Notes: generated by a model from the letters alone, not told the origin. A DNA stretch of 64,000 nucleotides from a virus (IMGVR_UViG_3300005563_000004:3332-67331), one strand, 5' to 3'. Positions 32,277 through 62,551 are shown, counted from the first letter of the stretch. Numbers and translations: made by a program.

Positions 32277-32299
32277 CGGAAGGCAAAGGAGCTATCCGA

Positions 32300-32944: not shown

Positions 32945-33199
32945 ATGCGCCGGATAGTTGGAACCAGCTTTCTGGCGCTCCTCTTGGCAGTGCCGGCCTT
33001 CGCACAGACGCCGGCCGTCATTGACGGGCCGCTGACGATCAACGGCAATCTTCAGGTGAATGGAGCTGCCCAGATGCGGCAGCAGACGGTGCTTCAGGGC
33101 ACTATCCTCAAGGCGCCCAACCTGCCATCTGCGGCACCCGCCCAGCACTGCGCGATCTGGGTCAACAACGGGGTGCTGAACAGAACGGTGTGCCCGTGA
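32945..33199 (+). CDS. small secreted protein
   Basis: AAGGAGG SD; signal peptide ending AFA-Q; two Cys. Confidence 0.7.
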   Translation: MRRIVGTSFLALLLAVPAFAQTPAVIDGPLTINGNLQVNGAAQMRQQTVLQGTILKAPNLPSAAPAQHCAIWVNNGVLNRTVCP

Positions 33200-34407
33200 G
33201 TGGCACGACCGGCACATATGCGTTCAATCCGGCGCTGAGCGAGATCGCAATCGACGCTTTCGAGCGTTGCGGAAAGTCGCTGCAAACGTTGACCGACCAG
33301 ACCGGCTATATCCAGTCCGCGCGCCGGTCGATGAACTTTGTGCTCTCCTCGTGGAGCAACCGCGGCGTGAACCTCTGGACGGTGCAGGAAGTGCACCAGT
33401 TCATGCCGCAGGGCGTGGCGCAGTATTTCGATGACGCAAGCTGTGTCGAGATCCTGCCAGCGAGCGTCGTGCTGCGGCAGTACCTGATGGGGGCGCCCGT
33501 CTCGGTCTCACCCGCCTTCGCCACCACGGCCGGATCGAATGTGGTCACGGTGGCGGGCTTTAACCCGACGCCGACTGTCGGAAGCTACGTGAACATTGGC
33601 GTCATGGTCAGCGTTGGCGGAGTGATCCTTGATGGCTTTTACCCGGTGCAGTCAGTACCGATTTCTGGCTCAGCCACGATCTTGGCAAACGCGGCTGCGA
33701 CGGCGACGACATCGAATGCCGGGTCTGTCCCGGTATTTTCGATGACGGCCGGCTCCAACGTCGTCACCGTCACCTTCGCCAATCACGGACTGCTGGCCGG
33801 CGCGACTTTCACCGTCGAGAGCGCGACGGCGATCGGCGGCGGACAGCTGCTTGGTCCCTATACGGTGCTGGCGGCAAACCTGACCGCCAACACCTTCCAG
33901 ATCACTGCCTCGTTCAACGCCGGCTTCAACACGAATATCGGCGAGAACGGCGGGCAGACGCTGCTGACCAGCCAGGCGATGACGCCGGGCACCGCGGCCA
34001 ATCCGACAGACATTACGCTCTGGGCGATCAGCCGCGACGAGTACATGGAGATCCCGAACAAGTCGCAGCAGGCGCGCCCGACCAGCTTTTGGATCGATCG
34101 CCAGGTGGTGCCGGTGTTCAACATCTGGCCGGTGCCGGACGAGAACGGCCCATACGAACTGCGCTATCGCCGCTCGCGGCAGATCCAGGATGCGGATCTG
34201 GCCGGCGGCCTGCAGATCCAGACGCCGTATCGCTTCCTCGAGGCGTTCACCGCGGACCTCGCCGCGCACCTTGCACTGAAGTTCGCGCCCGATCGGCTCG
34301 CGGTGCTGAAGCCGTACGCCACTGAGCAATGGGTGCTGGCGAGCGAGGAAGACCGCGAAGTTGTCAGCACATACATCGTGCCTGACTTCGCGGGGTACTA
34401 CGGATAG
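33196..34407 (+). CDS. head-tail adaptor with inserted tandem beta domains
   Basis: DAFERCG...ARRSMN....WSNRGVNLWTV; ISRDEY..IPNK....RP..FW; IWPVPD; PYRFLEAF..LA. Confidence 0.75.
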   Translation: MSGTTGTYAFNPALSEIAIDAFERCGKSLQTLTDQTGYIQSARRSMNFVLSSWSNRGVNLWTVQEVHQFMPQGVAQYFDDASCVEILPASVVLRQYLMGAPVSVSPAFATTAGSNVVTVAGFNPTPTVGSYVNIGVMVSVGGVILDGFYPVQSVPISGSATILANAAATATTSNAGSVPVFSMTAGSNVVTVTFANHGLLAGATFTVESATAIGGGQLLGPYTVLAANLTANTFQITASFNAGFNTNIGENGGQTLLTSQAMTPGTAANPTDITLWAISRDEYMEIPNKSQQARPTSFWIDRQVVPVFNIWPVPDENGPYELRYRRSRQIQDADLAGGLQIQTPYRFLEAFTADLAAHLALKFAPDRLAVLKPYATEQWVLASEEDREVVSTYIVPDFAGYYG

Positions 34408-34413
34408 CGCGCG

Positions 34414-35013
34414 ATGGGCATTCAGCAATCCAGTCGCTGTTACGCCGACATCCGCAAGCCGCAGCCGTGGGCGTTCTGCGACCGCTGCAACAATCGCGTG
34501 TTTCATCACGATCTGCGCTGGCAGTTCGACTATCGCGGGCCGAAGCTGGCGAACCTGTGCATTCTCGTGTGCGATCGCTGCTACGATCAGCCGTACGAAT
34601 TTAATCGGCCGATTGTCATCGGTCCCGACCCAGTCCCAGTGAAAGATCCGCGGCCTGGCTATCTGGCGCAGCAGGCGGGGCCGGCGCCGCCGCCGTTCTT
34701 TCCGTTCCAGATCCAGCCGGTGCCGCCGGGGCGGTTCGTCTTTCTCACGGATGACCTGGGCAACGTCATCACTGATGATCTTGGCCAGCCGATCGAGATT
34801 GAGGCCGGCACGGCGCTCGTGCCGCCGATCCCGCCGGTCACGTTCCAGTACCTGACAGACGACCTCGGCAACGTCATCACCGATGACCTCGGCCAACCGA
34901 TCGAGTTTGAGGTTGGCGGCGGTGGCCCAACGCCGATCCCACCAACGCCACCGTCAGGCAATCTGGTCTTCACGGGGCCTGGTTCATCTCAATACGTGCC
35001 GGTGGTCCTATGA
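34414..35013 (+). CDS. CDRC Zn-finger protein with duplicated LTDDLGNVITDDLGQPIE
   Basis: CDRC twice, DP.PV..PRP, and an internal repeat. Confidence 0.75.
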   Translation: MGIQQSSRCYADIRKPQPWAFCDRCNNRVFHHDLRWQFDYRGPKLANLCILVCDRCYDQPYEFNRPIVIGPDPVPVKDPRPGYLAQQAGPAPPPFFPFQIQPVPPGRFVFLTDDLGNVITDDLGQPIEIEAGTALVPPIPPVTFQYLTDDLGNVITDDLGQPIEFEVGGGGPTPIPPTPPSGNLVFTGPGSSQYVPVVL

Positions 35014-37802
35014 CGCGGTTTCTTGCTCTCCTGCTCCTCTTGTTCGCCGGCCCGGCATCGGCCGCGCAGCTGACCATTGTCGATGGCAATGGCGTGTCGC
35101 AGAAGCTGAACGTCCAGGCTGATGGCAGCGGGGCATTCTCTAATCGCAACATCATCTGTGACGCGACGAACCCGGATATCTGCGCCACCGTCAGCGCGAC
35201 CCTTGGACTCTCTGTGCTGGCCACAGGCAACGGCTCGGCCGGATCACCGGATACCGGCGTTCTGACGGTCCAGGGCATTTCCTCCATGACGCCGCTGGTG
35301 GTCAACAATCCGACCGCGGCGAACCTGTTGACCACGACGACTGGCGCGGGCGTTGCGGGCACTCCGGATGCGGGTGTGGTGACGATCCAGGGCGTCACCG
35401 GCATGACTCCAGTTCAGACGACGGTGGTTGGTGGATCGAGCGTCACTGCCACGCAGACCACGGCATCGAACCTGAAGACCCAGACAACAGGTGCCGGATC
35501 GCCAGGCACCGCGGATAGCGGTGTTCTGACAGTGCAGGGCATCAGCAGCATGACGCCGCTTCAGGTGTCGCAATCTGTGGCGGCTAATCTGAACGCAACG
35601 GTCACTGGCACGATCACAGCTATTCAGCCGACCGGCAGCAACCTGCACATGACGTGTGACAGCGGCTGTTCGCCTTCAACCAATCCTTCGGACGAAAGTG
35701 TCTTCACTTTTGGCTCGACGCCAACAGGCACATTCGGCGGTGTCTTTCAGACGACGGCGACAAGCAACGCTCTGACATCCGGCCAGACTGGTGCGGTCCA
35801 GCTGACGGCGCAGCGCGCCTTGTTCGTGAACCTGCGCAACTCCTCCGGCACCGAGATGGCGACCGCGGGCGCGCCGCTTCAGGTATCGCTGGCCAACACC
35901 GGGGCCAATGGCACAGCGGTTACCGTTGGGCAGAGTACTGCCGCGAACCTTAAGGCGACCGTGACCGGCGCGGGAACGGCCGGCACGGCGGATACCGGCG
36001 TCCAGACCATCCAGGGCATTGCCTCGATGACGCCGGTTCAGGTCAGCCAGGCGACCGCTGCGAACCTGAATGCGACGGTGGCACAGGCGACCGCTGCGAA
36101 TTTGAACGCCACTGTCATCGGCTCTGGCGCGGCGGGAACTGCTGCGACGGGTGTTGTGACGGTGCAGGGTATCGCCTCAATGACTCCAGTCCAGGTGTCG
36201 CAGAGCACCGGCACGAACTTGCATATCGTTTGTGACAGTGGCTGCTCATCGACTGGCGCGCCTGCTGACGAGTCTGCGTTTACAGCCGGCACAACGTCGC
36301 AATCTACGGTCGGCGGCTTCTTTCAGACGACGGCCACCAACAATGCGCTCACGACTGGCCAGATGGGCGCGTTTCAGGTGACCGCCAATCGTGCGCTGTT
36401 CACCAACCTACGCAACGCTTCCGGCACAGAAATCGGCACCTCGTCCAATCCGGTCCAAGTGTCCGTCGCCAACACTGGCGCGAACGGCACAGCGATCGCC
36501 GTGACTGCGGCGCAGGCGACGGCTGCCAATCTGAACGCGACGGTCGTGCAGGGCACGGCGGCAAACCTGCTGACCCAGGTCTCGCAGCCGACTGCCGCCA
36601 ATCTGAATGCGACGATCGTCGGTGCAGGAACCGCCGGAACGGCAAATTCCGGCGTGCTGACGATCCAAGGCATCTCGTCGATGACACCTGTTCAGGTTTC
36701 GCAGGCGACCGCCTCTAGCCTCAATGCCACCGTCGTCCAGGCCACCGGCTCCAACCTTCACGTGGTTTGCGACAGCGGCTGCACCTCAACCAGCATTCCC
36801 GCGGACGAGAGCGCTTTCACGGCCGGCACGACTGGCCAAAGCCCAGTGGGCGGCTTCTTCCAGACCACGGCAACGAACAATGCGCTGACCACGGGCCAGA
36901 TGGGCGCCTTCCAGGTCACTGCGAACCGCGCACTCTTTACGAACCTGCGGAACGCGGCCGGCACAGAAATCGGCACCTCGACCACGCCGGTTCAGGTCTC
37001 TCTGGCGAACACAGGCGCGAACGCGACAGCGGTGCTGGTGAACCAGCCGACTGCGGCGAACCTGAATGCGACCGTCGTCCAGGGCACAGCGACCAACTTG
37101 AAGGCGCTGGTCAACATCCAGGGCAATGGTGGGGCGGTGATGGACTTCGCCGGCCAGAACGCGGCAGCGCCCGCCAACTCGCTGCTGACCGGCTGTGTGT
37201 TCAACACCACGCCGACCTCGCTGACCAGCGGAAATGCAACGCAGCGTCAATGCGATTCTGCCGGGAATGCTTTGGTCAATCTGAAGACCTCGATCCCGCC
37301 AGGTGGCAACACGATCGGTGCAGTCACTCAGGCGTCCGGACCTTGGACTGTGCAGGGCACGACGACGATGACGCCGGTTTTAGCGGCATCGGCTCCATCT
37401 TCAGCGACCGCGGCAGCGATCACTCCGGTGTCCAGCTCGGCCTTGGAAAGCTCTCATGTTCTGAAGGCCAGCGCCGGCAACCTGTACAGCGTGTATGCGA
37501 TCAACAGCACCTCCACTTCCGGCTACCTGGTGATCATCAACGCCACATCGGCACCCGCAGATGGAGCGATCACGCCGCTTGCCTGTGCGCCACTGCCGGC
37601 AAATGGCGGCGGTGCTTTCTCATCAGGCTTCAGCAGTGGATTTTCATCAGCCGTTTCCGCGTCCCCCGGTCTCGCCGGCATCCAGTTTCACGTTCCAGAA
37701 TCTTATTCCACGGGGATCACGGCGGTTCTGACGAGTGCGACCAGCTGCTTTACGAAAACAACTGGCGTTATCACCGGCTACATCAGCGGGCAGGTCCAGT
37801 GA
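35010..37802 (+). CDS. signal-peptide-bearing repeat fibre-like protein
   Basis: MTRFLALLLLLFAGPASA; many Q.TAANLNATV and GV.T.QGI.SMTPVQV repeats; CDSGC three times. Confidence 0.8.
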   Translation: MTRFLALLLLLFAGPASAAQLTIVDGNGVSQKLNVQADGSGAFSNRNIICDATNPDICATVSATLGLSVLATGNGSAGSPDTGVLTVQGISSMTPLVVNNPTAANLLTTTTGAGVAGTPDAGVVTIQGVTGMTPVQTTVVGGSSVTATQTTASNLKTQTTGAGSPGTADSGVLTVQGISSMTPLQVSQSVAANLNATVTGTITAIQPTGSNLHMTCDSGCSPSTNPSDESVFTFGSTPTGTFGGVFQTTATSNALTSGQTGAVQLTAQRALFVNLRNSSGTEMATAGAPLQVSLANTGANGTAVTVGQSTAANLKATVTGAGTAGTADTGVQTIQGIASMTPVQVSQATAANLNATVAQATAANLNATVIGSGAAGTAATGVVTVQGIASMTPVQVSQSTGTNLHIVCDSGCSSTGAPADESAFTAGTTSQSTVGGFFQTTATNNALTTGQMGAFQVTANRALFTNLRNASGTEIGTSSNPVQVSVANTGANGTAIAVTAAQATAANLNATVVQGTAANLLTQVSQPTAANLNATIVGAGTAGTANSGVLTIQGISSMTPVQVSQATASSLNATVVQATGSNLHVVCDSGCTSTSIPADESAFTAGTTGQSPVGGFFQTTATNNALTTGQMGAFQVTANRALFTNLRNAAGTEIGTSTTPVQVSLANTGANATAVLVNQPTAANLNATVVQGTATNLKALVNIQGNGGAVMDFAGQNAAAPANSLLTGCVFNTTPTSLTSGNATQRQCDSAGNALVNLKTSIPPGGNTIGAVTQASGPWTVQGTTTMTPVLAASAPSSATAAAITPVSSSALESSHVLKASAGNLYSVYAINSTSTSGYLVIINATSAPADGAITPLACAPLPANGGGAFSSGFSSGFSSAVSASPGLAGIQFHVPESYSTGITAVLTSATSCFTKTTGVITGYISGQVQ

Positions 37803-37822
37803 GGCAAGGAGAGTAACTCACA

Positions 37823-38236
37823 ATGTCTGGTACAGTTTCATCGCCGTCGTCCTTGATGACGAACGAGATCGTGGACAACACGACTGGCTTGATCACGCCG
37901 GCCCGCATCCGGGACGTGGTGGAGAGTTTGGCGGCAATCCCAGAATCGACGCAAACGGCGTCATATACTGCCGTGTTCGCGGATCGCGGAACTTGCGTCA
38001 TAATGAACTCAGCGTCGGCGGTGAATTTTACCGTGCCGCCTAACTCATCCGTAGCATTTCCTATCGCTGCCAGGATCTATGTCTTTCAGTATGGTGCAGG
38101 CCAGGTGACGGTTGTTGCTGGCGCAGGCGTCACTTTGCGCAATTCATCGAGCCTCACGACAAGAATACAGTACTCGCTCATTGGTCTTCTAAAGATCAAC
38201 ACAGACGAGTGGCTGGTGTTTGGAGATGTGACGTGA
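37823..38236 (+). CDS. tail fibre-associated protein
   Basis: DNTTGLITPARIR; TVP..SSVAFPI...Q.GAGQVT..AGAGVT...W...GD. Confidence 0.75.
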   Translation: MSGTVSSPSSLMTNEIVDNTTGLITPARIRDVVESLAAIPESTQTASYTAVFADRGTCVIMNSASAVNFTVPPNSSVAFPIAARIYVFQYGAGQVTVVAGAGVTLRNSSSLTTRIQYSLIGLLKINTDEWLVFGDVT

Positions 38237-39729
38237 CCACATACTACGTCAATAGCGCTACGGGTAGCGATGGAAACAATGGCACAAGCCCCGGCACAGC
38301 GAAGGCGACGATCAACGCAGCGGCGGCCCTGACCAATGCTGGTGACACGGTCATCATTGCTCCTGGCAACGGGTACGGGGGGGGGACAGGAGGGAGTCCG
38401 ATCGTCACCATCAGCCGCAGCGGCACGTCGGGCAACCCCATTACCTATACAGGTGACACCACCCAAGCGCGGCCAGTAATTACAACCGGGCGCGGATTTC
38501 AGGTAGTTCTCATCAACGCGAACTTTATCAACTGGAACTACACAGAAATATCGGGCCTTGGGAACGGATGCACCATTGCCGGTTCATACGATTTAATTTG
38601 GACCGGAGGAAGTAGCTCTCAATATGAGAACGTCGGCATAGGCGCTAATGGCGTGGCTGCGACGCCGGCCCACAATATCAACATCACCAACAACTATGTT
38701 CATGATATGCCATCCGATGGCATCTCATCATTGTGGGCTGACTATGTAACCATTGACAGCAACATTGCCGTCAACAACGCCTTTTATAGCTATGTGGCCG
38801 GCAGCGGCATATCTCTCGGATTTTCTAAACCGATTGACGGCTTGACGACGGCGAAATGCTTCATCACAAAGAATATTTGTTACAACAATAATAATCTTGT
38901 CGTTTTCGACACGGGAGCGACCACGACTACGGCGAACGGCACGTCTAATTCCGGGCAGGCGGTATTAAACGTCGCCAGCACTGCAGGATTCTCTGCTGGC
39001 ACCTTTGTTTATAATTCGACGCGCGCCTCGATAACAAATGGGACTTATGTGCTCTCAGTCGGCGCCGGCTCGCTTACGCTGTCGGCAAACCTTGTTGACC
39101 AGTCCTTGAATGGTGATCATATAGTGGGCGGGGACTTCAGCGATGGTGAGGGAATAATTATCGATACAAATACCGACACCGGGGGCGTTGGGGCATATAC
39201 CGGCAGAACTGTCGTCCAAAACAATCTGTGCTTTAACAATGGCAGCGGTGGAGTGTACATAACCAGATCCTCCCATTGCGACGTAAACTTCAACACGTGC
39301 TGGCAGAACCAGCAGGGGTTCTCGCGCAATGACAACACCCACAGCATATTCATCGGATCGATAGGACTATTTGTCAGTGCGTCATCAGCGGACAACAACC
39401 TATACAATAATCTAGTTGTTTCTCCGAGCTGGGGGCCGTGTATCAAAAATGCCGGCACAACCACCACTTTCAGCACCAATCTTGGTAACGGCGGCGATGG
39501 CACGGCTCTGCCGGGCAGTGGAAACATCACCACAGCCCCTACGTTCTTCAACGCATCGACTAATCCTGCCGTGATGGATTTCCGCCTAAAGAATAGCTCT
39601 GCAGGCGTGAATGCTGCGAGCGCGACCTACACGCGAACGGTGGATATTTCCGGCCGCAAGGGGTCTATCGGATCAGCTAGTGACATTGGCTGTTACGAAG
39701 GTCGGCTGATTTCACTGCCGGCGATGTAG
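38233..39729 (+). CDS. right-handed beta-helix (pectate lyase-like) depolymerase/tailspike
   Basis: TYYV....GSD.N.GTS.....TI..A......GDTV.I..G; Asn-ladder repeats; DF.L...S...; DIGCYE. Confidence 0.8.
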   Translation: MTTYYVNSATGSDGNNGTSPGTAKATINAAAALTNAGDTVIIAPGNGYGGGTGGSPIVTISRSGTSGNPITYTGDTTQARPVITTGRGFQVVLINANFINWNYTEISGLGNGCTIAGSYDLIWTGGSSSQYENVGIGANGVAATPAHNINITNNYVHDMPSDGISSLWADYVTIDSNIAVNNAFYSYVAGSGISLGFSKPIDGLTTAKCFITKNICYNNNNLVVFDTGATTTTANGTSNSGQAVLNVASTAGFSAGTFVYNSTRASITNGTYVLSVGAGSLTLSANLVDQSLNGDHIVGGDFSDGEGIIIDTNTDTGGVGAYTGRTVVQNNLCFNNGSGGVYITRSSHCDVNFNTCWQNQQGFSRNDNTHSIFIGSIGLFVSASSADNNLYNNLVVSPSWGPCIKNAGTTTTFSTNLGNGGDGTALPGSGNITTAPTFFNASTNPAVMDFRLKNSSAGVNAASATYTRTVDISGRKGSIGSASDIGCYEGRLISLPAM

Positions 39730-40491
39730 ATGGCCGCACAGACCTGGACATCGCTGCAACAGTCTTGCGCAATCGCCATGGGGCGATTGCCGTCTCCTGT
39801 GCCTGCGACGCCGGTCTACGACTCGCTGTTCCTCGCGCAGTTCCCGCTGGCGACCAGCTACGCTGAGGCGCGCATCTACCACGAGATGCCGTTCATCGCG
39901 TCCTACGCCGAAGACACGTCAGCTTCGACCACCGCCGGCAGCCGACTGATCAACCTCTCGGCGACGACGTTGCCGCTGGTGACGCTCGAGCAGATCCGGC
40001 TGGTCGTACCAACATCATCGGTCCTGCCGGCCGGGACGATGGTGCCATTCGATCGCGTGACGCTCGACTTCATCGACCGCTACTGGCCGGTGGAAGGTGC
40101 GACGCTCACGCCGTCCCTGACCTCGCAATATGGCCGGTACTGGGCGCTGGTCAGCGATCGCACTGTAGCCATCGCCCCGACGCCGGATGCTGTCTACCAG
40201 GTCAAGGCCGGCGGGCTGTACCAGCCGGCGCCGATCAGCGCGAGCAATCCAAGCACGTATCTCTCGCAGCAGTATCCCGATCTGCTGCAGGCCGGCATCT
40301 GCATGTTCCTGGCCGGCGCACTGAATCGGAACTATGGCGCCCAGTCTGACGAAAGCGGCCAGGCGATGAGTTGGGAAGCGGTGTTCCAAAAGGAACTGGC
40401 ACCGGCCCGTGCCGAAGAAATGCGGCGCCGTGGGCTGGCGCCTGACATGCCCATGCCAGCGCCTCCACCTTCAATAGCGGCACGACGATAG
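39730..40491 (+). CDS. tail adaptor / tubular protein A-like
   Basis: AE.RIY; YWA......IAPTPD..Y; TYLS..YPDLL. Confidence 0.7.
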   Translation: MAAQTWTSLQQSCAIAMGRLPSPVPATPVYDSLFLAQFPLATSYAEARIYHEMPFIASYAEDTSASTTAGSRLINLSATTLPLVTLEQIRLVVPTSSVLPAGTMVPFDRVTLDFIDRYWPVEGATLTPSLTSQYGRYWALVSDRTVAIAPTPDAVYQVKAGGLYQPAPISASNPSTYLSQQYPDLLQAGICMFLAGALNRNYGAQSDESGQAMSWEAVFQKELAPARAEEMRRRGLAPDMPMPAPPPSIAARR

Positions 40492-44284: not shown

Positions 44285-44287
44285 CGA

Positions 44288-44743: not shown

Positions 44744-44753
44744 GAGCGAGAAC

Positions 44754-45326: not shown

Positions 45327-45354
45327 GCGGCGTCCGGCCAGAGGGCCGCGCTCT

Positions 45355-47190: not shown

Positions 47191-47217
47191 AGCGGCGCAT
47201 TTTGCTACAGGAACGCA

Positions 47218-52791: not shown

Positions 52792-55700
52792 ATGGCCGGC
52801 CCCTGGACAGAGTTTCAGGGCGGCGACCTCGACCGCTTCTACGACGATGCGGGTAAGCAGAACGGTGTCGATCCCGATCTGCTGCGATCCGTCCACAGCG
52901 TAGAAAGCCGCGGCAACGATATGGCCGTGTCGCCGGCCGGGGCGCTGGGCCGCGGCCAGTTCCTGCCTAGCACCGCGCGCTCCGTTGGAATGACCGACCC
53001 GTTCAACGCACGGCAGTCGATCTACGGCACCGCAAAGTACCTCAAGGTGCTGTCGGGCGAACTGGGTGACGATCGGCTGGCAGTCGCTGGTTATCACGGT
53101 GGCCCGAACACGCAGGAGTGGGGGCCGAAGACCGCACAGTACGTCCAGCACGTCAGCCAGGACTATCAGCAGCGGAAGGCCGCCGAAGCACCGCCGCCTT
53201 CTGGGCCGTGGACGCAGTTTCAGAAGCAGCCGCAACAGACTGGGCCGTGGGCGCTGTTCCAGCAGCAAGACGAAGGCCGACCGCTGACGAACGCAGAGGC
53301 GGTGAAGCAGCTGCCGATGGCGGAGAGGGACGAGGGCACTGCGCAGCCGCAGATCCAAGTCGGCAACGGCGCTGATCTGGCGAAGGTGCTTTCGTCGCCC
53401 GAAGCGGAGGCTGCCGATATTCCGCAGTCGCAAGCGCCAGCGGACACGTCAGAAATCCAAGAGGCGATGCGTAAGGCATATGCCTCAACGCCACCGCTGG
53501 TTAATCCGCAGTCGGGCACCGGTCAATGGTTGTCGCAGCACGGCATGAGTGGGCTGACGCAGCCGATCGTGCCGATGGCGGCGATGAATGCCGGCTGGGC
53601 CGGGCTGTCGGAAGCAGCGATCGAGGCGACGAAGCGATACGCGGGCGAGGGCGCAGCGAAGACTGTCGGACAAGTGATGGAGATGGCCGGCTCCGGTGCA
53701 TTGGCACCGGAACTGATGGGCGGTGGAATGCGGATGCATGAGGCGCCTGCGGCTCCGGTGTCTCCGCCCGGAGTAAGACCGGAGCCACAGGCTACGGCGC
53801 AGACGCTACCGCAGCGTTCTGCTACCCCAACGCTTGATGCGGTTGCAAGCGAAGCGCGCGCTCGCGCGCAAACGCCGGAGCAGGCAGCGCTGGACGAACT
53901 GCACCAGCAAGCCGCGCCGGCACCGGAGGCGCCCGCTGGATCGGCGATCGAGGCGCTGAAGAAGCAGGCGGCGACAGACACGCCAGCCGCGCCGATGCAG
54001 CAACCTCCGCCATCACCCGCAGGCACACCGGCAACAGAGCCGCCGTTGCCAGCCGCGCGCATGGAGACGCCACCACCTACACCGCCCGACGTGCGCCAGC
54101 GCCTGGCGGAAGTCAGCGCGAAGGAGGCGGAGCTATCGAAGGCGGAGGAAGCGGCAAATGCGCCGGCTCCTGAAGTCGACAAGGCAACAAACCGACCGGC
54201 CGGAAGCTGGGTCGCGGTCAGTAAGGAGACAGGCCAGCCTGTTCTCGAGACATTCGAGAAGCAGACGGCCGACGCCATCGACAAGTCGAAATACGATGTG
54301 CTGCCAGCTGGCGAATATCTCGGCAACCTAAACAAGCAGATACGCGAAGGGCAGGCGCCAGAGGAGACGCCACCGACGCCACCAGCTCCACCACCGCGCC
54401 GCGGTGAGCCGACGCCATTCGAGAAGCTGCCGCGCGAGCCGATGCGGCTAGTGGAATGGCTGAAGCAGAACGGCGGCATCAAGGATGAAGGCGGCGATCT
54501 GAACGCCATTCTCGGCGGCAGCAAAGGGCGCCCCGGCCTGATCAACAACAAGCGCGGCGCCACACTGGACGACGCGGCGCACGCAGCGTGGCAGGCCGGC
54601 TATCTACCCGATGCCTCCCGGCCCGACACAAACGCGCTGCTCGACGCCATCCGCGATGACCACACCGGCACCAAGCGGTACAGCCAGCAAGACTTCGATC
54701 GCGTGCAGGACTACCAGGAAGCGGTCGGGCGCAATGAGGAAGTCGATCGCCTCGCCACGACGCACGAGATCGAGACGCGCGGCAAGACGCGCGATCAGTT
54801 CTACGACGAGCTGCACGACCGGCTATCGACCGAAGACCGGGCGCGCGAGATCGCGGAGCAGGAAGCAGGCTTCCTCGACGCGCAGCGCGAACTGGATCGT
54901 GGCGCGCGAGAGCACAAGCCGGAGCCGGAAGCAGGACTTGCGCCGTCACCGTGGAACGCGCGAGAGTTCTACGGCCAGTCGCAGGCGCGGACGCTGGAGG
55001 ATTTAGAGCGTGAGCATCGCGAGGAGACACATCCTGCAGCAGCGCAGCAACGCGGTGAAGGTGCTGAACGACCCGCACCTGCCGCACCACCTGAAGGTGT
55101 CGGCCAAGAAGCTGAAGGACCACGCGGACGTGCTGCTGGGGATGCAGGACGCGGCGAAGCGGTCAGCGCAGAAGCGGGAATCGCAAGGCCGTGGGAGCAA
55201 GGCGGCAAGCAGAGGGTCTACTTCAACCTAGGCCGCGGCAAGTCTGGATTCATTGAACAGACTGCTCACAACGGTGATTACGACTGGACGATGCGCTATC
55301 CGACAGCCAATCGGGGCGGCGAAAAGGTGCGCGACGCAATGCACCAATGGATGGCCGAACGATTCGGCAACGAGCGCAATCCACAATGGTCTGAGATATG
55401 GGACCGTGCCAACGGCAAGACGCCTGCGGCTGACCTCCTCGGGCGACAAATAGCCGAACCACGCGCCAAGGCCGGCGCCGAACCGACCATCCGCAACGAC
55501 CCGAACCAGATCGGCATGCCCGGCATGGAGGCGTCAGCCGTCCAGGCACAGGCCGCACGAGACGCGCAGGGCCGCGGCGCACTGCAATCTGAAGCACCGC
55601 AGAAGCCCGCGAACGAAGGGCTGTTCGCGCCAGACACGACAGGGCAGGGGACGCTGTATAGCTTCCCCGGAGCGTTGGTTGATCCAGAGGCATGGCGCCG

Positions 55701-58203: not shown

Positions 58204-58312
58204 TCCGCTGGGTGCTCTGGGTCATCTTCCTATGGCACGCCCTCACAATATTGCTATAGGTTCTTCAGCTTTCAGCGTCTGAGAGCGCACACACACTGGC
58301 CGAGTGCTGCGC

Positions 58313-60106
58313 ATGCCTGGACGCTATCTGATCGCTCTCCTGATCAATGCTATCCTCTTGGCTCTTTCGGTGGTGTCGGGCCACGCCCAGCCCGCCTGTC
58401 TCACGACCGCGCCGAACGCGGTCGCGTGCCAGCAGAATGGCAACAATCTGCAGCCGACCGATATCATCCTTGGACAGCAGGCCACCGGCCCGTCACGGTC
58501 CAATCAGACGGTCAACTTCTCCATCAGCCAGATCATGTCGGCCGGCGTGCCGGCCAGCGTCGCCTCACTCTCGGCAAGCGGCAACGCGAACCTGAATGGC
58601 ACGTTGACTGTCGGCGGCGTGGCCACGCTCAACTCCAGCCTCTCCGTATCCGGCGCCAGCACGCTTCACGCCACCACCATCACCGGCAACACCTCGATCA
58701 GCGGCACGCTAAGCGCCGGCAGCACGACCCTCACCGGCACACTTGCCGCCTCGGGCAACAGCACAGTCGGCGGCACGCTCATCGTCACTGGCGCGGTCAC
58801 CGCACCGTCCATCAGCAGCGCCGGCAACAGCTTCCAGATTGCGCCAAATGCGGCCACCACGACCTTTGGCGGCGTCACGGTGTTTGATCCGATCAACACA
58901 GGTTCTCTGCCCGGCAGCGCCGCACAGGGATCGTTCGCGTGGTCGCCAGACTGCCGCAACGGCAGCGAGGCAAACGGCGCCGGCACTGGCTGCTTCTCCT
59001 ATGTCAACGACAACGGCACATGGGTTCAGCTGTCGAATCCATCCACGCTCCAGATCAACGTCGCCGGCCAGTCGGTCTTTCTCGGGGGTACGGTAGCCGG
59101 CCAGGGCAACGGCTCGCGGCTGCTGACTGCCACCGGCACATTCACCGCCGGCAACGCCATTGTCGCATCAGCCAGCGGCACCGCGATCGACGGCGGTGTT
59201 CCGCCAGGCGGCGGTTCAGGCGGCGGCGGCACAGTCGGCAACTGCGTCAGCGCACCAGCCATTGCCTACTACTCGACAGCCGGAACGTCTGTCACTTGCT
59301 TGGCGCAGGTGAACAACGCGGTGTTGTCGACCAACGGCACAGCCATTCCATCCCTCTCGACCACACTGCCGGCCGGTTTGACCATTCCATCCGCCACGCT
59401 CAGCAGCCCGGTCACCACCGGCCTGGCAACGATGGCTTCGGCAACGCTGACCGGCCCGCTGACGACTGCGGCCTCCACCACGGGTGGCGCCAACATCTTC
59501 TGCCCGCAGGGCACTGCTCCGACATCACCGACCAACGGCAGCATCTGGTGCACGACGCAGGGCATGTTCGGCCGCTTTAACGGCTTCACGCTTGGCCCGT
59601 TCGCGTCGCTGACCAGCTTCAGCGGCACTTCGCCGATCACCTTCAACAGCGGCACGGGCGCCATCGGTTGCGCCACATGTTTGGTCGGTGCAAGTGGGGG
59701 CACGCTATCGGCGACGGCTCCGCTAACCCTTACCGGCAGCACGTTGAGCATGGGCACCGCTATCCAGACCGCCACACTCTGGTGGCCTGCCAATGTCACC
59801 GTGACAAATGATACTGCCCCAGTCCCGCAAGAGACATGGCCGTGGGCCAGTGGCACAATCGACTCGATCACTTACCATACGGGCGGCACCAATGCGCCGT
59901 CGTTCGTTGTCACCGCACAGGTGAATGGCTCGCCCGTCACCGGATGCTCCAACATCACTGTCTCGTCGGCCACCGATACGACGGCGACATGTACCGCCGC
60001 CAACACAGTGGCGTCGGGAGGTCATGTTACGCTGGTCACATCGAGCGTGGCCGGCACGCCGTTCTCAGCGGTGGTACAGGTGAATTATCATCGGTCGTTC
60101 CCGTGA
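58313..60106 (+). CDS. signal-peptide-bearing Thr/Ser/Gly-rich fibre-like protein
   Basis: Hydrophobic N-terminus ending GHA-Q; L.V.G beta repeats; many Cys. Confidence 0.75.
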   Translation: MPGRYLIALLINAILLALSVVSGHAQPACLTTAPNAVACQQNGNNLQPTDIILGQQATGPSRSNQTVNFSISQIMSAGVPASVASLSASGNANLNGTLTVGGVATLNSSLSVSGASTLHATTITGNTSISGTLSAGSTTLTGTLAASGNSTVGGTLIVTGAVTAPSISSAGNSFQIAPNAATTTFGGVTVFDPINTGSLPGSAAQGSFAWSPDCRNGSEANGAGTGCFSYVNDNGTWVQLSNPSTLQINVAGQSVFLGGTVAGQGNGSRLLTATGTFTAGNAIVASASGTAIDGGVPPGGGSGGGGTVGNCVSAPAIAYYSTAGTSVTCLAQVNNAVLSTNGTAIPSLSTTLPAGLTIPSATLSSPVTTGLATMASATLTGPLTTAASTTGGANIFCPQGTAPTSPTNGSIWCTTQGMFGRFNGFTLGPFASLTSFSGTSPITFNSGTGAIGCATCLVGASGGTLSATAPLTLTGSTLSMGTAIQTATLWWPANVTVTNDTAPVPQETWPWASGTIDSITYHTGGTNAPSFVVTAQVNGSPVTGCSNITVSSATDTTATCTAANTVASGGHVTLVTSSVAGTPFSAVVQVNYHRSFP

Positions 60107-60116
60107 GCGATGCCGG

Positions 60117-62102
60117 ATGAGATCGCTCACAGCGCTGCTCTTTCTGCTGCTCGCCGTTCTGATCGGCGCCGCTGCCCCATTCAGCAGCGGCTTTAACTCC
60201 CAGGCATTCGGCCCGTTTCCGACAACGCCAACCGGCGCGATACTCAGCTCGGGCTATTTCACGGTCAGCGGCAACCAGTTTCTCGACGGCTCGAATAACC
60301 CGCAGCGCTTCGCCTGCACCCAGTTCCTCGGCGCTCCCAACGACGGGACGATGGCGGCGATCCGTCAGCAAGGCCAGTTCAACTGCGTGGTCATCGACTG
60401 GCGCGACAAGTACCTGACTGCGCCCTCTCCACCGAACGGCTGCAATACCTTCGCGCAGATCGACGTGTGCGTGGCCAACGCCAGCGCCAACAATCTGAAG
60501 GTCATCCTTTCGCACCGCGGCAACGAGATCCCGGTCTCTCCGACCAGTCCGTGCTGGTCGCGCCAGGCAAACGGCCTGCCCTATGATAGCGGCGGCGACT
60601 CAGGGAATGACGACGGCTGTAACGACGGCGGCAACGTCACCTATCTGCAGTTTCTGCAAAACACGGTATCGCTGCTGCAGCGATACGCCAATAATTCGAC
60701 TGTCATAGGCTACCAGATCCACCACGAGCCGATCGTCTCTGGCACCTACACCGGCCAGCCCAATCCCAACAGCGGGGGCACCAACGCTGCGATCTGCTGG
60801 AACTGTGGCAACGGCGACACCGATTGGCTCTGCATCGCGCAGGAGGTCGGCAACGACGTTGCAGTGGTCAATCCGGGTGTGATCGAGTTCGTTCCGGGGC
60901 CAATCAATAGGACCGCGACTCTGTTAAACGGACAGCCGCTATCGACCGGCAGCGGTATGATGGACCTGTCGGCAGTGGCGGCCTCCCCAGTCGGTGGCGG
61001 CGCTGGCCCGGTAGCGACCAAGGTGGCGTACGGCGTCGACCTCTATCCGACCAACGTGACCAGCGTGTCGCCAGACAGCGGAGCGAGCGCGATAACCGCC
61101 TGGAATACCTTTTTCGGCTTCATCGAGAAGAACAACACTGCACCTGTCATGTTCATAGAAACTGGCTGCTCGTGCGACGGCACGAACGGCAATCTCGCTG
61201 ACGATCAGGCGTTCATGAACACCTTTGTCCTATACGTGAACGGCCTGGCCGCCAACGGCCCGACCTTTGCGGGACGCAACCAGCCGATGTCGACCAACTG
61301 GTATGCCTGGGGCAACCTGACATCCAACCCCAACGGGACGCTGAACGCTGACAGCACAACCAAGACTGGGCAGCAGAACTACTTCGGCCAGATGCTCTTT
61401 GTGCCGTCGATTTCCCCGGTGGCAACAACGTGGAACCCGAACGATTCGCTTACCATCACGCTCAGCAATAACAACCTGACAGCGACCAGTGCCGCCGGCA
61501 CTGGCGGTGGCGTTCCCGCTGCGGTGCGGTCGACCACCAGCTATTCCGCTGGCAAGGTCTGCTTCGAGATAACCGCCTCCACGATATCGAATGACTGGGA
61601 CGTGGGGCTGGCAAATGCCAGCTACGCTCTGGCCAACGGCAATGGGCTTGGTTCCGACACGAACGGCATCGGCTTCGATCCCAACTTCGACCTCGGAAAC
61701 AACAATGCTCTCGGCATCTTCTTCATAAACATCTTGTCGCAGGCCAGCACCGGAACGGGCGATGCGAACGGTGCGAAGGTTACGATCTGCGAGGACTTTG
61801 GCGCCGAACTGTTCTGGGTCACCAGCACGCGGATGCGCGCTCTGGGAAGCACCTGGAACAACAGCCCGACAGCCAATCCTGCAACCGGCACAGGCGGTCT
61901 CAGCACGTCCGGCCTGAACTGTCCGTGCTTCATCGCCTACCAGAATGGCGAGCCGGGAGCAGTCGCTGTTCTCAACACGGCTGGGCCTTTTGCGGTTGCA
62001 ACGCCGGCTGGTTTTAGTGCATGGGACACGCCGGTCGCCTCTACGACTGGGCGTCCATTCATCATTCTTGGGATGCTTGATCGTCCCTTTAGGAGCCACT
62101 GA
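60117..62102 (+). CDS. secreted GH5 (cellulase-family) hydrolase with SPRY-like domain
   Basis: Signal peptide; GYF.VSG.Q..D; LKVIL.H; RY..N.TVIG....HEP; APV...E.G; WY.W; TWNP.D...LSN.NLTAT...GK..FE. Confidence 0.8.
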   Translation: MRSLTALLFLLLAVLIGAAAPFSSGFNSQAFGPFPTTPTGAILSSGYFTVSGNQFLDGSNNPQRFACTQFLGAPNDGTMAAIRQQGQFNCVVIDWRDKYLTAPSPPNGCNTFAQIDVCVANASANNLKVILSHRGNEIPVSPTSPCWSRQANGLPYDSGGDSGNDDGCNDGGNVTYLQFLQNTVSLLQRYANNSTVIGYQIHHEPIVSGTYTGQPNPNSGGTNAAICWNCGNGDTDWLCIAQEVGNDVAVVNPGVIEFVPGPINRTATLLNGQPLSTGSGMMDLSAVAASPVGGGAGPVATKVAYGVDLYPTNVTSVSPDSGASAITAWNTFFGFIEKNNTAPVMFIETGCSCDGTNGNLADDQAFMNTFVLYVNGLAANGPTFAGRNQPMSTNWYAWGNLTSNPNGTLNADSTTKTGQQNYFGQMLFVPSISPVATTWNPNDSLTITLSNNNLTATSAAGTGGGVPAAVRSTTSYSAGKVCFEITASTISNDWDVGLANASYALANGNGLGSDTNGIGFDPNFDLGNNNALGIFFINILSQASTGTGDANGAKVTICEDFGAELFWVTSTRMRALGSTWNNSPTANPATGTGGLSTSGLNCPCFIAYQNGEPGAVAVLNTAGPFAVATPAGFSAWDTPVASTTGRPFIILGMLDRPFRSH

Positions 62103-62363
62103 ATGAAGCGTTTGGTACTGGTCGCCCTTCTGGCCGCGCCTTTTGCGGCGCATGCGCAGCAGGCAAATCTCGAGGATAAGGTTGCCGCAGCCGAGGCGAC
62201 CAACGTCGATCTTCTGCAACTGGTGACCAACCTGCGCGCGCAGATCAACGCTGATGCACGCGAGAGAGCGCAGCTGATCAAGCGTGCGGCCGAAGCCGAC
62301 AAGGAGAAGCCGACTGCGGCGCCGAGTGCACCGACACCGGTTAACCCGAAGGAAGGCAAATGA
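62103..62363 (+). CDS. secreted coiled-coil protein
   Basis: Signal peptide ending AHA-Q. Confidence 0.65.
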   Translation: MKRLVLVALLAAPFAAHAQQANLEDKVAAAEATNVDLLQLVTNLRAQINADARERAQLIKRAAEADKEKPTAAPSAPTPVNPKEGK

Positions 62364-62551
62364 CCAAGTTCGAGGCGTGGCTGCGCCAGCCGAGCACGAT
62401 CCACGCGCTCGGGGTCTGCGCGGGCGCGATCGGCGCAGCCCTCTCGCAGCTGACCACAGGCAACGCCACGGCTGACGCTATGGTCGGCCTGGTGGCTTAC
62501 GCGCTCGTGCACGCGAGCGTTCGGGACCACACGGCCCCGCCCTCGGCGTGA
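62360..62551 (+). CDS. holin-like two-TM protein
   Basis: WLRQPST..L; two hydrophobic segments; 63 aa. Confidence 0.6.
   Translation: MTKFEAWLRQPSTIHALGVCAGAIGAALSQLTTGNATADAMVGLVAYALVHASVRDHTAPPSA

What the first reader, a model, noticed from the sequence alone, without database searches (positions are those of the whole stretch)
32945..62363. Fibre-like and glycan-active proteins inside the virion operon carry export signal peptides: possible periplasm-matured virion appendages
Seen: classical signal peptides on 32945 (AFA-Q), 35010 (930-aa repeat fibre, ASA-A), 58313 (GHA-Q), 60117 (GH5+SPRY) and 62103 (AHA-Q). All lie among adaptor, nozzle, fibre and ejection genes. Most contain closely paired Cys (CDSGC three times, CATC, CWNC, CSC, CPC). 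The secreted-type genes at 21051 and 21435 and the Tat pair at 15.8-18.3 kb add to the set. Known: tailed phages assemble in the reducing cytoplasm and their fibres normally lack signal peptides. Inference: this phage exports a set of disulfide-bonded parts that either dock on virions at lysis or coat and remodel the infected cell surface or biofilm matrix.
Basis: partly seen in the sequence, partly recalled or inferred. Interest (0 to 1): 0.85.

Follow-up and report, generated by a model that had tools for sequence, protein, structure and literature searches.

The report
Phage fibre-like proteins with export signals
A complete 67-kb tailed phage genome carries, inside its particle-building gene block, fibre-shaped and sugar-cutting proteins that start with bacterial export signals, so they probably fold and act outside the cytoplasm where phage particles are normally built.

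Summary
All five named genes (32945, 35010, 58304/58313, 60117, 62103) start with a charged n-region, a hydrophobic core and an AxA-type site. My heuristic flags 8 of 40 curated genes against 7 of 247 non-gene ORFs of the window. The signals are conserved in relatives: 88 of 120, 25 of 28 and 19 of 22 homologues of 35010, 58304 and 60117. The -1 Ala is the only nearly invariant N-terminal residue in two of these families. A 72-kb syntenic relative keeps all three genes with diverged signals.

35010 and 58304 are fibre-like with C-terminal jelly-roll knobs, and a trimer model of 58304 passes its controls. 60117 is a GH5 glycanase. The "Tat pair" is a GH16-like and a GH5-like domain behind twin-arginine signals. 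Close Cys pairs track the signal within the 35010 family.

Export is well supported. Attachment to virions is untested. I favour free, exported glycan-binding and glycan-cutting proteins built from tail-fibre modules, acting on the infected cell's own envelope (0.45). Periplasm-matured virion appendages come second (0.25). 32945, 62548, the Tat pair, 21051 and 21435 have no detectable homologue in the nearest relative, so they look accessory. 62103 has only a positional analogue there. The finding is a new variant of a known kind.

The parts
35010..37802 (+). 930-aa exported repeat protein. It has a Sec-type signal (ASA-A), a conserved strand motif right after the site, three ~90-aa repeats each with CDSGC, and a C-terminal jelly-roll knob (about residues 800-930).
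   Evidence: 88 of 120 homologues signal-like; A18 nearly invariant.
58304..60106 (+). 600-aa (597 aa from ATG 58313) exported fibre-like protein with signal GHA-Q, six local Cys pairs, and a trimeric shaft plus jelly-roll knob in its C-terminal half.
   Evidence: 25 of 28; A25 nearly invariant; trimer score 0.82, best control 0.00.
60117..62102 (+).
   Evidence: 1ECE endocellulase E1, E 6e-9, both catalytic Glu aligned; 19 of 22.
32945..33199 (+). 84-aa signal-bearing small protein (AFA-Q) with two C-terminal Cys. It is absent from the syntenic relative G001.
62103..62363 (+). 86-aa protein with signal or anchor (AHA-Q), a coiled-coil-like middle and a Pro-rich end. It may be lysis-related. 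G001 has an 80-aa protein of like build at the same position.
   Evidence: no BLASTP alignment to the G001 analogue.
62548..62979 (+). 143-aa predicted lipoprotein (lipobox LLAGC).
   Evidence: no homologue in G001-G003.
15800..16735 (+). 311-aa protein with a twin-arginine signal (ARRSLLAG ... AYA-D), a Cys-loop module, then a GH16-like domain in which the aligned catalytic motif reads QIGIFD instead of EIDITE.
   Evidence: (E 3e-13 to the GH16 domain of P0206).
16705..18291 (+). 528-aa protein (519 aa from ATG 16732) with a twin-arginine signal (GRRALLGG ... AVA-E), the same Cys-loop module, then a GH5-like (clan GH-A) domain.
   Evidence: PF00150 in P0199 at 24.3 bits, cut-off 23.5, inside the homologous region.
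21051..21419 (+). 122-aa signal-bearing protein just after the large terminase gene.
21435..22052 (+). 205-aa signal-bearing Gln/Gly-rich protein (AFA-W).
18552..18791 (+). 79-aa predicted lipoprotein (LLSGC) upstream of the terminase gene.
   Evidence: genome 21883-22122 = window 18552-18791.

Best explanation
These are real export signals: Sec type on 32945, 35010, 58304, 60117, 62103, 21051 and 21435; twin-arginine type on 15800 and 16705; lipoprotein type on 62548 and 18552. They sit on proteins transcribed with the late genes.

The conserved core is 35010, 58304 and 60117. It consists of trimeric fibre-with-knob proteins and a GH5 glycanase built from the same modules that other phages use in signal-less tail fibres and giant depolymerase-like proteins. 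Here a signal peptide stands where a virion-attachment domain would be.

Shown by sequence evidence:
- The signals are conserved in homologues.
- The proteins are fibre-like or glycanase-like.
- Paired Cys track the signal.

Inferred:
- Late in infection the proteins cross the inner membrane of a diderm host.
- They fold with disulfides in the periplasm.
- They act as free proteins, not bound to particles, on the infected cell's own envelope polysaccharide, and on the surrounding matrix after lysis.
- By binding or cutting the glycan the phage uses as receptor or barrier, they keep progeny from sticking to debris or to the doomed cell and clear the way out.
- Periplasmic targeting restricts this action to the producing cell.
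For: Signals:
- They are conserved while their sequence drifts: 88 of 120, 25 of 28 and 19 of 22 homologues, and 40 of 52 complete ORFs on viral contigs, 38 without a far-downstream start.
- In the alignments the -1 Ala (A25 in A2, A18 in A3) is the only nearly invariant residue in the first 30 positions.
- The 72-kb relative G001 keeps all three genes with different signal sequences.

Cysteines:
- Cys pairs co-occur or are lost together in the 58304 family.
- In the 35010 family a close Cys pair is present in 87 of 89 proteins with a hydrophobic N-terminus against 7 of 12 without (Fisher p 2e-4).

Module re-use behind a signal:
- The 35010 repeats also occur in signal-less proteins of 600-2119 aa with other N-termini.
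- The domain of 16705 also lies near or at the C-terminal end of signal-less proteins of 1582-2930 aa that carry fn3, GH16 and beta-helix domains.
- 58304 residues 357-454 match annotated tail fibres of phages Paso and StenR_269.

Other points:
- The phage has signal-less fibre candidates of its own (38209 beta-helix; 40492 with an S74 chaperone). The N-terminal 160 aa of 40492 are conserved in relatives, as a virion anchor would be.
- The enzymes are glycan-active: GH5 with both catalytic Glu aligned and a GH5-like domain behind a Tat signal.
- Precedent for an exported tailspike-like glycan enzyme: WceF, Tat-exported, trimeric, cleaves stewartan (PMC7949094, passages read).
Against: - No experiment or proteome bears on where the proteins end up.
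- The genes lie inside the tail block, coupled to their neighbours, with no excess of promoter- or terminator-like sites.
- The slot after the 34414-like gene is filled by a different signal-bearing fibre in G003. That looks like receptor-binding cassette exchange.
- G003 and G002 invest in five and four such large proteins, which is more typical of virion receptor-binding sets.
- Two signal-less family members (P0070, P0110) start with the same strand motif that follows the cleavage site in 22 of 88 signal-bearing members. The mature proteins may therefore be equivalent with and without export.
- The GH16-like protein lacks the catalytic motif, so it cannot cut.
- The host and its glycans are unknown.
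Confidence: 0.45

Rival explanations
1. Periplasm-matured virion appendages. The fibre-like proteins are exported and fold with disulfides in the periplasm. They join fibre-less particles when the holin opens the inner membrane or after lysis, much as tailspikes and fibres can be added to particles in vitro. This would be an assembly route split between two compartments.
For: - The genes sit in the tail module and are coupled to it.
- Different signal-bearing fibres occupy the same slot in G000, G001 and G003.
- They share modules with annotated tail fibres.
- A trimeric shaft-and-knob model is supported (score 0.82, best control 0.00; the mark was reached by 20 of 30 solved one-chain pairs and 1 of 23 single chains; contacts agree at 97% or more; partner pLDDT at least 93).
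- A conserved strand motif follows the cleavage site directly and also heads two signal-less members.
- G003 invests about 8 kb in five such proteins.
Against: - I found no precedent for a Sec-exported part of a tailed-phage particle in five literature searches of the held library.
- The mature N-termini of 35010, 58304 and G003's 645-aa protein are unlike each other, so no common anchor is visible.
- Signal-less fibre and tailspike candidates already exist in this phage.
- Clear enzymes and Tat or lipoprotein signals travel with the set.
- Homologues in G001 are conserved over their full length rather than diverging at the tip.
Confidence: 0.25
2. Host-benefit cargo (auxiliary or lysogenic-conversion genes). 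The secreted glycanases and adhesin-like fibres would serve the lysogen, for example in polymer degradation, biofilm or surface change, as described for soil viral carbohydrate-active enzymes.
For: - Soil prophage carbohydrate-active enzymes with signal peptides are on record: 3261 of 64,678 (5%) by SignalP (PMC13507307, passages read).
- Repressor-like HTH genes lie at 6224 and a small serine recombinase lies outside the window.
- The Tat pair, 21051, 21435, 32945 and 62548 have no homologue in G001, as accessory cargo would.
- Family members occur on MAG contigs labelled Alphaproteobacteria, Acetobacteraceae and Ca. Sulfotelmatobacter.
Against: - The three core genes are conserved in place inside the late operon, with no promoter or terminator signal of their own.
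- Their nearest look-alikes are overwhelmingly viral.
- No integrase of the usual size was seen among the proteins I scanned. The record has terminal repeats, so a temperate life style is not shown.
Confidence: 0.15
3. These are not export signals. The hydrophobic N-termini would be uncleaved anchors or assembly helices of cytoplasmic virion proteins, or artefacts of start-codon choice in GC-rich DNA.
For: - GC-rich ORFs can mimic signals: 7 of 247 non-gene ORFs are flagged.
- 60117's own site (GAAA-P) is poor.
- 62103 could be a signal-anchor of spanin type.
Against: - 20% of genes are flagged against 3% of controls.
- The feature is conserved across hundreds of homologues, with a nearly invariant -1 Ala and variable cores.
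- Starts are fixed by gene packing and match independent gene calls (P0158, P0186).
- Cys pairs are associated with the signal.
Confidence: 0.05

Closest known systems
WceF of Pantoea stewartii (and AmsF of Erwinia): a Tat-exported, trimeric, tailspike-like exopolysaccharide hydrolase (PMC7949094; passages read)
   Same: It is a phage-fibre or tailspike architecture placed behind an export signal. It is trimeric and acts on the producer's own envelope glycan, possibly during periplasmic transit.
   Different: WceF is a chromosomal bacterial gene in an EPS cluster, with a beta-helix fold and a P22-tailspike-like head domain. Here the genes lie in a phage late operon, the folds are repeat shaft plus jelly-roll knob or GH5, most signals are Sec type, and no activity is known.
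Exported accessory proteins encoded in or next to phage tail genes: lambda Lom and Bor, T5 Llp, P1 Sim, HK97 gp15 (recalled, not looked up here)
   Same: They are signal-peptide or lipoprotein products encoded among or beside structural genes. They act on the infected or lysogenic cell's envelope, for example Llp blocking the phage's own receptor.
   Different: Those are small single-domain proteins. Here three are large (600-930 aa), fibre-like and trimeric or enzymatic, conserved across a lineage, and made from tail-fibre modules.
Soil viral or prophage carbohydrate-active enzymes ('auxiliary metabolic genes') with signal peptides (PMC13507307; passages read)
   Same: 60117 and 16705 are phage-borne GH5-type domains with export signals from a soil-type lineage.
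   Different: That work counts enzymes across prophages and reads them as host-metabolism extensions. It does not treat fibre-like proteins or placement in the virion operon.
Canonical podovirus tail fibres and tailspikes (T7 gp17 position; P22 gp9; the Rhizobium phage Paso tail fibre)
   Same: 58304 lies just after the SLT internal virion protein, where Paso and T7-like phages have their fibre. It shares a roughly 70-aa motif with Paso's fibre and is predicted to form a trimer with a distal knob.
   Different: Canonical fibres start with a virion-binding domain (Paso: PF03906, per its annotation) and have no signal peptide. These start with a cleavable signal and have Cys pairs.
XepA, the 'exported protein' of the Bacillus subtilis PBSX late/lysis cassette (PDB 6i56 title; PMC6834076, search listing and abstract start only)
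   Same: It is an exported protein encoded at the end of a phage-like element's late operon. Its beta-sandwich domain is among the middling structural matches of the 35010 knob (Z 6.1, rmsd 3.1, 87 aligned).
   Different: XepA is pentameric, comes from a monoderm host and has a cytotoxic or lysis-linked role. The structural match is at the level of a common fold only.

Membership tests
Sec-type (signal peptidase I) signal peptide | Positively charged n-region, an uncharged hydrophobic core of about 7-15 residues, and small residues at -3 and -1 | tested here: met
   All five named genes plus 21051 and 21435 pass. 60117's own site is weak, but most of its homologues have AxA-Q.
Sec-type (signal peptidase I) signal peptide | The feature, not the sequence, is conserved in homologues, with a conserved -1 residue | tested here: met
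   88 of 120, 25 of 28 and 19 of 22 homologues. A18 and A25 are nearly invariant.
Sec-type (signal peptidase I) signal peptide | Positive score from a trained predictor (SignalP 6); cleavage shown by the mature N-terminus | not testable with these tools
   No predictor or proteome is on hand.
Twin-arginine (Tat) signal peptide | An RR motif of the S/T-R-R-x-F-L-K type (recalled) before a mildly hydrophobic core and an AxA site; conserved in homologues | tested here: met
   15800 has ARRSLLAG...AYA-D and 16705 has GRRALLGG...AVA-E. An RR motif is found by regex in 6 other proteins of the 50 printed (P0188, P0198, P0200, P0205, P0207, P0229), and by eye in P0218.
Glycoside hydrolase family 5 (60117) | Sequence match to GH5 with both catalytic glutamates (NEP-type acid/base and nucleophile; residue roles recalled) | tested here: met
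   1ECE matches at E 6e-9 over residues 178-412, with hhEP aligned to hnEP and fiEtg aligned to lgEfg. Homologues P0141 and P0151 pass PF00150. The window protein itself gives no Pfam hit at E up to 1.
SPRY domain (C-terminal part of 60117) | Match to PF00622 or to a solved SPRY domain | tested here: inconclusive
   There is no hit for residues 440-661. Homologue P0147 scores 15.3 bits against a cut-off of 26.3.
Glycoside hydrolase family 16 (15800) | GH16 fold with the catalytic E-x-D-x-x-E motif (motif recalled) | tested here: not met
   It is homologous to the GH16 domain of P0206 (E 3e-13; Pfam 72.7 bits on P0206). The aligned motif is QIGIFD against EIDITE. It is therefore GH16-like in fold but probably not a hydrolase.
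Virion tail fibre / receptor-binding protein | Trimeric fibrous architecture with a distal binding domain | tested here: met
   58304 residues 395-597 as three copies: score 0.82, best control 0.00, contacts agree at 97% or more, pLDDT at least 93. Jelly-roll knobs are seen in both proteins, but the matches are middling. The monomer models are poor (mean pLDDT 60 and 53.5).
Virion tail fibre / receptor-binding protein | N-terminal domain that binds the tail, and assembly in the cytoplasm (no signal peptide) | tested here: not met
   A signal peptide stands at the N-terminus. No known anchor domain was found by Pfam or PHROGs.
Virion tail fibre / receptor-binding protein | Presence in purified particles | not testable with these tools
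   The best match in the phage collection for 35010 covers 17% of it in one uncultured phage record, 58304 gives two 11-12% motif matches, and 60117 gives no match at all.
Two-component spanin (62103 as i-spanin, 62548 as o-spanin) | An N-terminal membrane anchor plus a periplasmic coiled coil; a small Pro-rich outer-membrane lipoprotein partner; neighbourhood of holin and endolysin | tested here: inconclusive
   The build of 62103 fits, with only weak coiled-coil-type Pfam hits below cut-off. 62548 has a lipobox but is 143 aa and not Pro-rich. The only endolysin candidate (14299, GH108, weak) lies 48 kb away. There are no PHROG hits.

The most novel reading that the evidence does not exclude
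A lineage of soil podophages builds part of its receptor-binding apparatus outside the cytoplasm. Sec-exported, disulfide-locked trimeric fibres mature in the host periplasm. They are added to otherwise complete particles only when holin lesions or lysis merge the two compartments. This would be a two-compartment assembly route unknown for tailed phages.
Probability: 0.22. Interest if true: 0.9.

Novelty: new variant of a known kind. Interest (0 to 1): 0.62.

Why it matters
Tailed phages are taken to fold and assemble all particle parts in the reducing cytoplasm. Phage-encoded exported proteins are known mainly as small exclusion factors, lysis proteins or stray enzymes. Here, large trimeric proteins made of tail-fibre modules carry conserved export signals and paired cysteines, inside the virion operon, across several complete ~70-kb phage genomes.

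Either outcome is new. If they are free proteins, the phage sends copies of its glycan-binding and glycan-cutting modules into the periplasm to treat its own cell's surface. That would be a new class of receptor-destroying or receptor-masking factor, and a caution for reading soil viral glycanases as 'metabolic' genes. If they are virion parts, particle assembly is split between two compartments.

The question is directly testable with particle proteomics and export reporters. It also matters for annotation pipelines, which call such genes 'tail fibre' by position.

Tried and rejected
- Megablast of 25 kb of the window against the phage collection gave no match.
- Single-protein locus searches with 33190 and 58304 found none and one weak locus. 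The alignment-based search worked.
- Pfam, PHROGs and PDB sequence searches gave nothing for 35010 and 58304, and nothing for 15800 and 16705 in PDB.
- AlphaFold2 monomer models were poor outside the C-terminal knobs. Fold matches of the knobs are middling and show only a common jelly roll.
- The 'SPRY' label was not confirmed.
- My GC3-based gene caller chose antisense frames in the Thr/Ser/Gly/Ala-rich fibre genes and was dropped. I replaced it with a curated list and a one-strand greedy ORF set, which includes spurious ORFs.
- BLASTP of 62103 against the G001 protein at the same position gave no alignment, so I claim only a positional analogue.
- Promoter and terminator scans showed no excess over shuffles.
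- The nearest record in the phage collection (MW202675) has no signal on the fibre-like genes after its ejection genes. The trait is therefore not general to the wider group.
- Literature: five searches found no report of a Sec-signal-bearing fibre in a tailed-phage particle. The library lacks most subscription journals, so this is not proof of absence.
- A spanin reading for 62103 and 62548 was considered and left open.
- An autotransporter reading for 35010 (one homologue is so named by its source) was rejected. The C-terminus is a confident beta-sandwich knob, not a barrel.

Full report
WHAT THE WINDOW IS. The window is bases 3332-67331 of a 67,331-bp virus record with direct terminal repeats (105 bp exact) and a CheckV completeness of 100%. 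GC is about 62% and no tRNA genes were found. No record of the phage collection is close at DNA level. Family searches give this + strand map:
- primase-helicase 9067
- endonuclease VII 12954
- a weak GH108 endolysin candidate 14299
- large terminase 19296
- portal 23064
- capsid 30179
- beta-helix protein 38209
- tail fibre with S74 chaperone 40492
- 684-aa hub protein 41745
- ejection protein 49747
- 1803-aa internal virion protein with an SLT domain 52792

By tblastn the hub and portal are nearest to uncultured freshwater phages and, at 27-34% identity, to Pelagibacter phages HTVC027P and HTVC023P, Roseobacter phages CRP-901 and CRP-902 and Caulobacter phages. The hub gene is annotated there as 'phage stabilization protein'. 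So this is a podovirus-like phage of a diderm host. Its host is not identified.

THE OBSERVATION. Each of the five named genes begins with one or two basic residues, an uncharged hydrophobic core and a small-x-small site:
- 32945: AFA-Q
- 35010: ASA-A
- 58304/58313: GHA-Q
- 60117: GAAA-P, a weak site
- 62103: AHA-Q

Gene packing leaves little freedom for the starts. Independent gene calls in the protein databases use the same starts for 58313 and for ATG 16732 (P0158, P0186).

A simple heuristic (not SignalP) flags 8 of 40 curated genes, but only 7 of 247 other ORFs of 80 aa or more in the same GC-rich window. With a -3/-1 rule the control falls to 3 of 247. The two twin-arginine proteins are not caught by that heuristic and were read by eye. 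Two lipobox proteins add to the set: 62548 (LLAGC) and 18552 (LLSGC).

Cys density is 1.69% in the ten signal-bearing proteins and 0.63% in the other thirty.

ARE THE SIGNALS REAL? The strongest evidence is comparative.
- Of the 120 best homologues of 35010 (633 with E up to 1e-3), 88 have a signal-like N-terminus. Many of the rest are fragments that do not start with Met.
- For 58304 the count is 25 of 28, and for 60117 it is 19 of 22.
- On 55 viral loci carrying the 35010 repeat, 3 ORFs are cut by a contig end. Of the 52 complete ORFs, 40 have a signal. Two of these need a start more than 100 codons downstream, so 38 are firm. Several loci are duplicates of one phage: L004-L007, L016/17, L033/35, L041/42 and L043/44.
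- In the alignments the hydrophobic cores vary freely. The -1 Ala (A25 in the 58304 family, A18 in the 35010 family) is the only nearly invariant residue in the first 30 positions.
- In 22 of 88 signal-bearing 35010 relatives, a conserved strand motif (hydrophobic-x-hydrophobic-x-D/N-G-x-G) begins one to three residues after the site.

THE NEAREST RELATIVE. G001 is a 72,189-bp record with terminal repeats and a capsid protein 89% identical to the window's. It is syntenic with the window and keeps homologues of 35010 (68%), 58304 (62%) and 60117 (66%) in the same places. Each has a signal of different sequence: AHA-D, an ASA/ARS site, and AWA-Q. It has no detectable homologue of 32945, 62103, 62548, 21051, 21435 or the Tat pair. 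It does have an 80-aa protein with a signal and a coiled-coil-like middle in the position of 62103, but that protein gives no BLASTP alignment to 62103.

CYSTEINES. In the 58304 family the Cys come in local pairs that are kept or lost together:
- 214/227: 26 and 26 of 26
- 453/456: 25 and 25 of 25
- 311/329: 11 of 11 and 11 of 26
- 397/413: 9 and 9 of 26

In the 35010 family, 76 of 88 signal-bearing members have an even Cys count in the mature part. Among members that start with Met, a close C-x(2-4)-C pair is present in 87 of 89 with a hydrophobic N-terminus. It is present in 7 of 12 with a clearly non-hydrophobic one; 8 intermediate cases were set aside (Fisher p 2e-4). The association is real but not absolute, since seven signal-less members keep such pairs. 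In the trimer model the CATC motifs of the three chains meet at the axis. That pair could equally hold a metal.

WHAT THE PROTEINS ARE.

60117. Its N-terminal two thirds are GH5. It matches Acidothermus endocellulase E1 (1ECE) at E 6e-9, with the acid/base and nucleophile glutamates aligned (residue roles recalled). Two homologues pass Pfam PF00150. The C-terminal 220 aa could not be assigned, and SPRY is only a sub-threshold hint in one homologue.

58304. It has no Pfam or PDB sequence match. Residues 357-454 match annotated tail fibres of Rhizobium phage Paso and Stenotrophomonas phage StenR_269. Its protein-language-model neighbours are all viral, some with Mtd_N or gp9/10-type domains; the scores are below 0.9, so these are leads only. 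The AlphaFold2 monomer is poor (mean pLDDT 60), except for residues 480-597, which form a jelly roll resembling BclA/C1q-type knobs and phage cement or minor tail proteins. Folded as three copies, residues 395-597 give a score of 0.82 against 0.00 for the best of three controls. The runs agree in at least 97% of contacts and partner pLDDT is at least 93. In the tool's calibration the mark was reached by 20 of 30 solved one-chain pairs and 1 of 23 single chains. The calibration used two copies and other alignments, so these counts hold only roughly. This supports a trimeric shaft and knob; it does not prove it.

35010. It has three ~90-aa repeats. Its model is poor (mean pLDDT 53.5), apart from a confident knob at residues 800-930. 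The knob's best matches are jelly rolls of TNF/C1q type, Pgp3, XepA and BclA at Z 5-6.7, a level the tool warns is common. Small phage proteins match the knob in BFVD.

The Tat pair. The two proteins share a short Cys-loop module after the signal. The body of 16705 has 75 relatives at E up to 1e-3 (41 at 1e-30). In many of them the domain lies at or near the C-terminal end of signal-less proteins of 1582-2930 aa. I scanned 12 of the 75 with Pfam. Seven have fn3 above cut-off, four have GH16, one has a beta-helix, and one has PF00150 above cut-off inside the shared region. The body of 15800 aligns to the GH16 domain of one of these giants (E 3e-13), but it reads QIGIFD where that protein has EIDITE. 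It is therefore probably a binding domain, not a hydrolase (motif role recalled). Six other relatives of the 50 printed carry twin-arginine N-termini by my regex, plus one seen by eye.

A LINEAGE TRAIT. Two more complete or near-complete ~70-kb records that share capsid, portal or hub genes with the window also carry runs of large signal-bearing proteins in the tail block. These counts come from a crude one-strand ORF set.
- G003 has five, of 555, 595, 248, 601 and 645 aa. One of them fills the slot after the 34414-like gene that 35010 fills here.
- G002 has four, of 252, 369, 439 and 583 aa.

G002's 252- and 583-aa proteins match tail-fibre PHROGs 863, 454 and 6202 in their Gly-rich C-terminal parts. 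MAG contigs labelled Alphaproteobacteria and Acetobacteraceae that carry the 35010 repeat show similar clusters. The nearest record of the phage collection, a freshwater phage, has no signals on its fibre-like genes. The trait therefore marks a sub-lineage, not the whole group.

HOW IT MOST LIKELY WORKS. Export is the well-supported step. What the exported proteins then do is inference. Three observations make me favour free proteins over particle parts.
1. In three separate cases (the 35010 repeats, the Tat pair, the 58304 motif) a module that elsewhere sits inside signal-less fibre-like or giant multi-domain proteins appears here behind a signal. No recognisable tail-binding domain comes with it.
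2. The phage has ordinary signal-less fibre and tailspike candidates. The N-terminal 160 aa of 40492 are conserved in relatives while its tip is not, which is the usual pattern of a virion-anchored receptor-binding protein. 35010, 58304 and 60117 are instead conserved over their full length.
3. The set includes true glycanases and Tat and lipoprotein signals, which are typical of envelope-acting proteins.

A periplasmic location would confine binding or cutting of the receptor or barrier glycan to the producing cell. That is the logic of T5 Llp (recalled). The bacterial enzyme WceF has the same geometry: a Tat-exported, trimeric, tailspike-like stewartan hydrolase thought to act during periplasmic transit or in the biofilm (PMC7949094, passages read).

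Against this reading stand several points:
- the position and coupling of the genes in the tail block, with no promoter or terminator signal
- cassette-like replacement in one slot
- the large coding investment in G002 and G003
- two signal-less relatives that begin with the very motif that follows the cleavage site

The virion-appendage reading therefore stays a serious rival at about one in four. Particles lacking spikes or fibres can be completed in vitro in classical systems (recalled). A merger of periplasm and cytoplasm at holin triggering is thus physically conceivable.

WHAT IS NOT PART OF THE CORE. 32945 sits between conserved genes and is missing from G001, whose gene order is otherwise the same. 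It looks like an inserted accessory gene. 62103, the 63-aa membrane protein at 62360 and the lipoprotein 62548 lie at the right end of the genome and could be lysis or exclusion genes. The spanin test is inconclusive. 21051, 21435 and 18552 flank the terminase gene and are likewise not conserved in G001.

COMPARISON WITH WHAT IS KNOWN. Exported phage proteins are known in several forms:
- small exclusion and conversion factors next to tail genes
- SAR endolysins and spanins
- signal-bearing carbohydrate-active enzymes in soil prophages (3261 of 64,678 by SignalP; PMC13507307, passages read)

Exported tailspike-like enzymes are known in bacteria (WceF). Five searches of the held library found no description of large trimeric fibre-like proteins with conserved Sec signals inside the virion operon of tailed phages, nor of any Sec-exported part of a tailed-phage particle. 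The library misses most subscription journals, and I saw no supplements.

I therefore rate the finding a new variant of a known kind. If the proteins prove to be on the particle, it would become categorically new.

VERDICT. Interest is 0.62.

Noticed in passing
window 34414-35013: A 199-aa protein with an N-terminal CxxC...CxxC pattern (six Cys in the first 56 residues), a Pro-rich stretch and two copies of an LTDDLGNVITDDLGQPIE-type repeat. Its N-terminal part is conserved directly upstream of the signal-bearing fibre slot in G001, G003 and L023. It has no Pfam family.
   Followed up: partly
window 38001-40000 (gene 38209-39729): The beta-helix (tailspike-like) gene lies in a GC trough (0.542 against about 0.62 elsewhere) and has no homologue in G001-G003. 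It may be a recently acquired receptor-binding cassette.
   Followed up: no
window 15800-18291: The two twin-arginine proteins share a module of about 25 aa after the signal (C-G-E-x-E-R-R-x-L-L-x-F-G ... A-Y-A-C-G). It is also present in relatives P0188 and P0229. Its function is unknown.
   Followed up: partly
window 15800-16735: The GH16-like domain has QIGIFD where a homologous GH16 domain (P0206) has EIDITE. It is probably a non-catalytic, lectin-like copy.
   Followed up: yes
window 35010-37802, 58304-62102: In the Thr/Ser/Gly/Ala-rich fibre genes a GC3-minus-GC2 criterion prefers the antisense frame. Composition-based gene callers may therefore miscall these genes.
   Followed up: no
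window 62360-62551 and 26762-26986: Two small proteins (63 and 74 aa) with hydrophobic segments are possible holin-type or membrane proteins. The first lies between 62103 and the lipoprotein 62548. Neither has a Pfam hit.
   Followed up: partly
window 32296-32686 (inside ORF 31982-32686): A basic, His-rich small protein that begins MAYKKRSERKG has a counterpart at the same place in G001. The long GTG-started ORF listed there probably overstates the gene.
   Followed up: no
L079 512-1102 (genome bases before the window): A 196-aa small serine recombinase (Resolvase N-terminal domain, 142.9 bits). It is an invertase or resolvase rather than a large integrase. The life style of the phage is undetermined.
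   Followed up: partly
window 62976-63779, minus strand: A 267-aa protein on the opposite strand at the right end matches phrog_19005 (unknown function, E 4e-26) over its full length.
   Followed up: no
L043 7958-14317 and L044: A 2119-aa signal-less protein carries the 35010-type repeat behind a conserved N-terminus (MADPxVxIxNGxP...), which is shared by P0102, P0120 and L036. It is probably the cytoplasmic, virion-anchored form of the family. These members have almost no Cys.
   Followed up: partly
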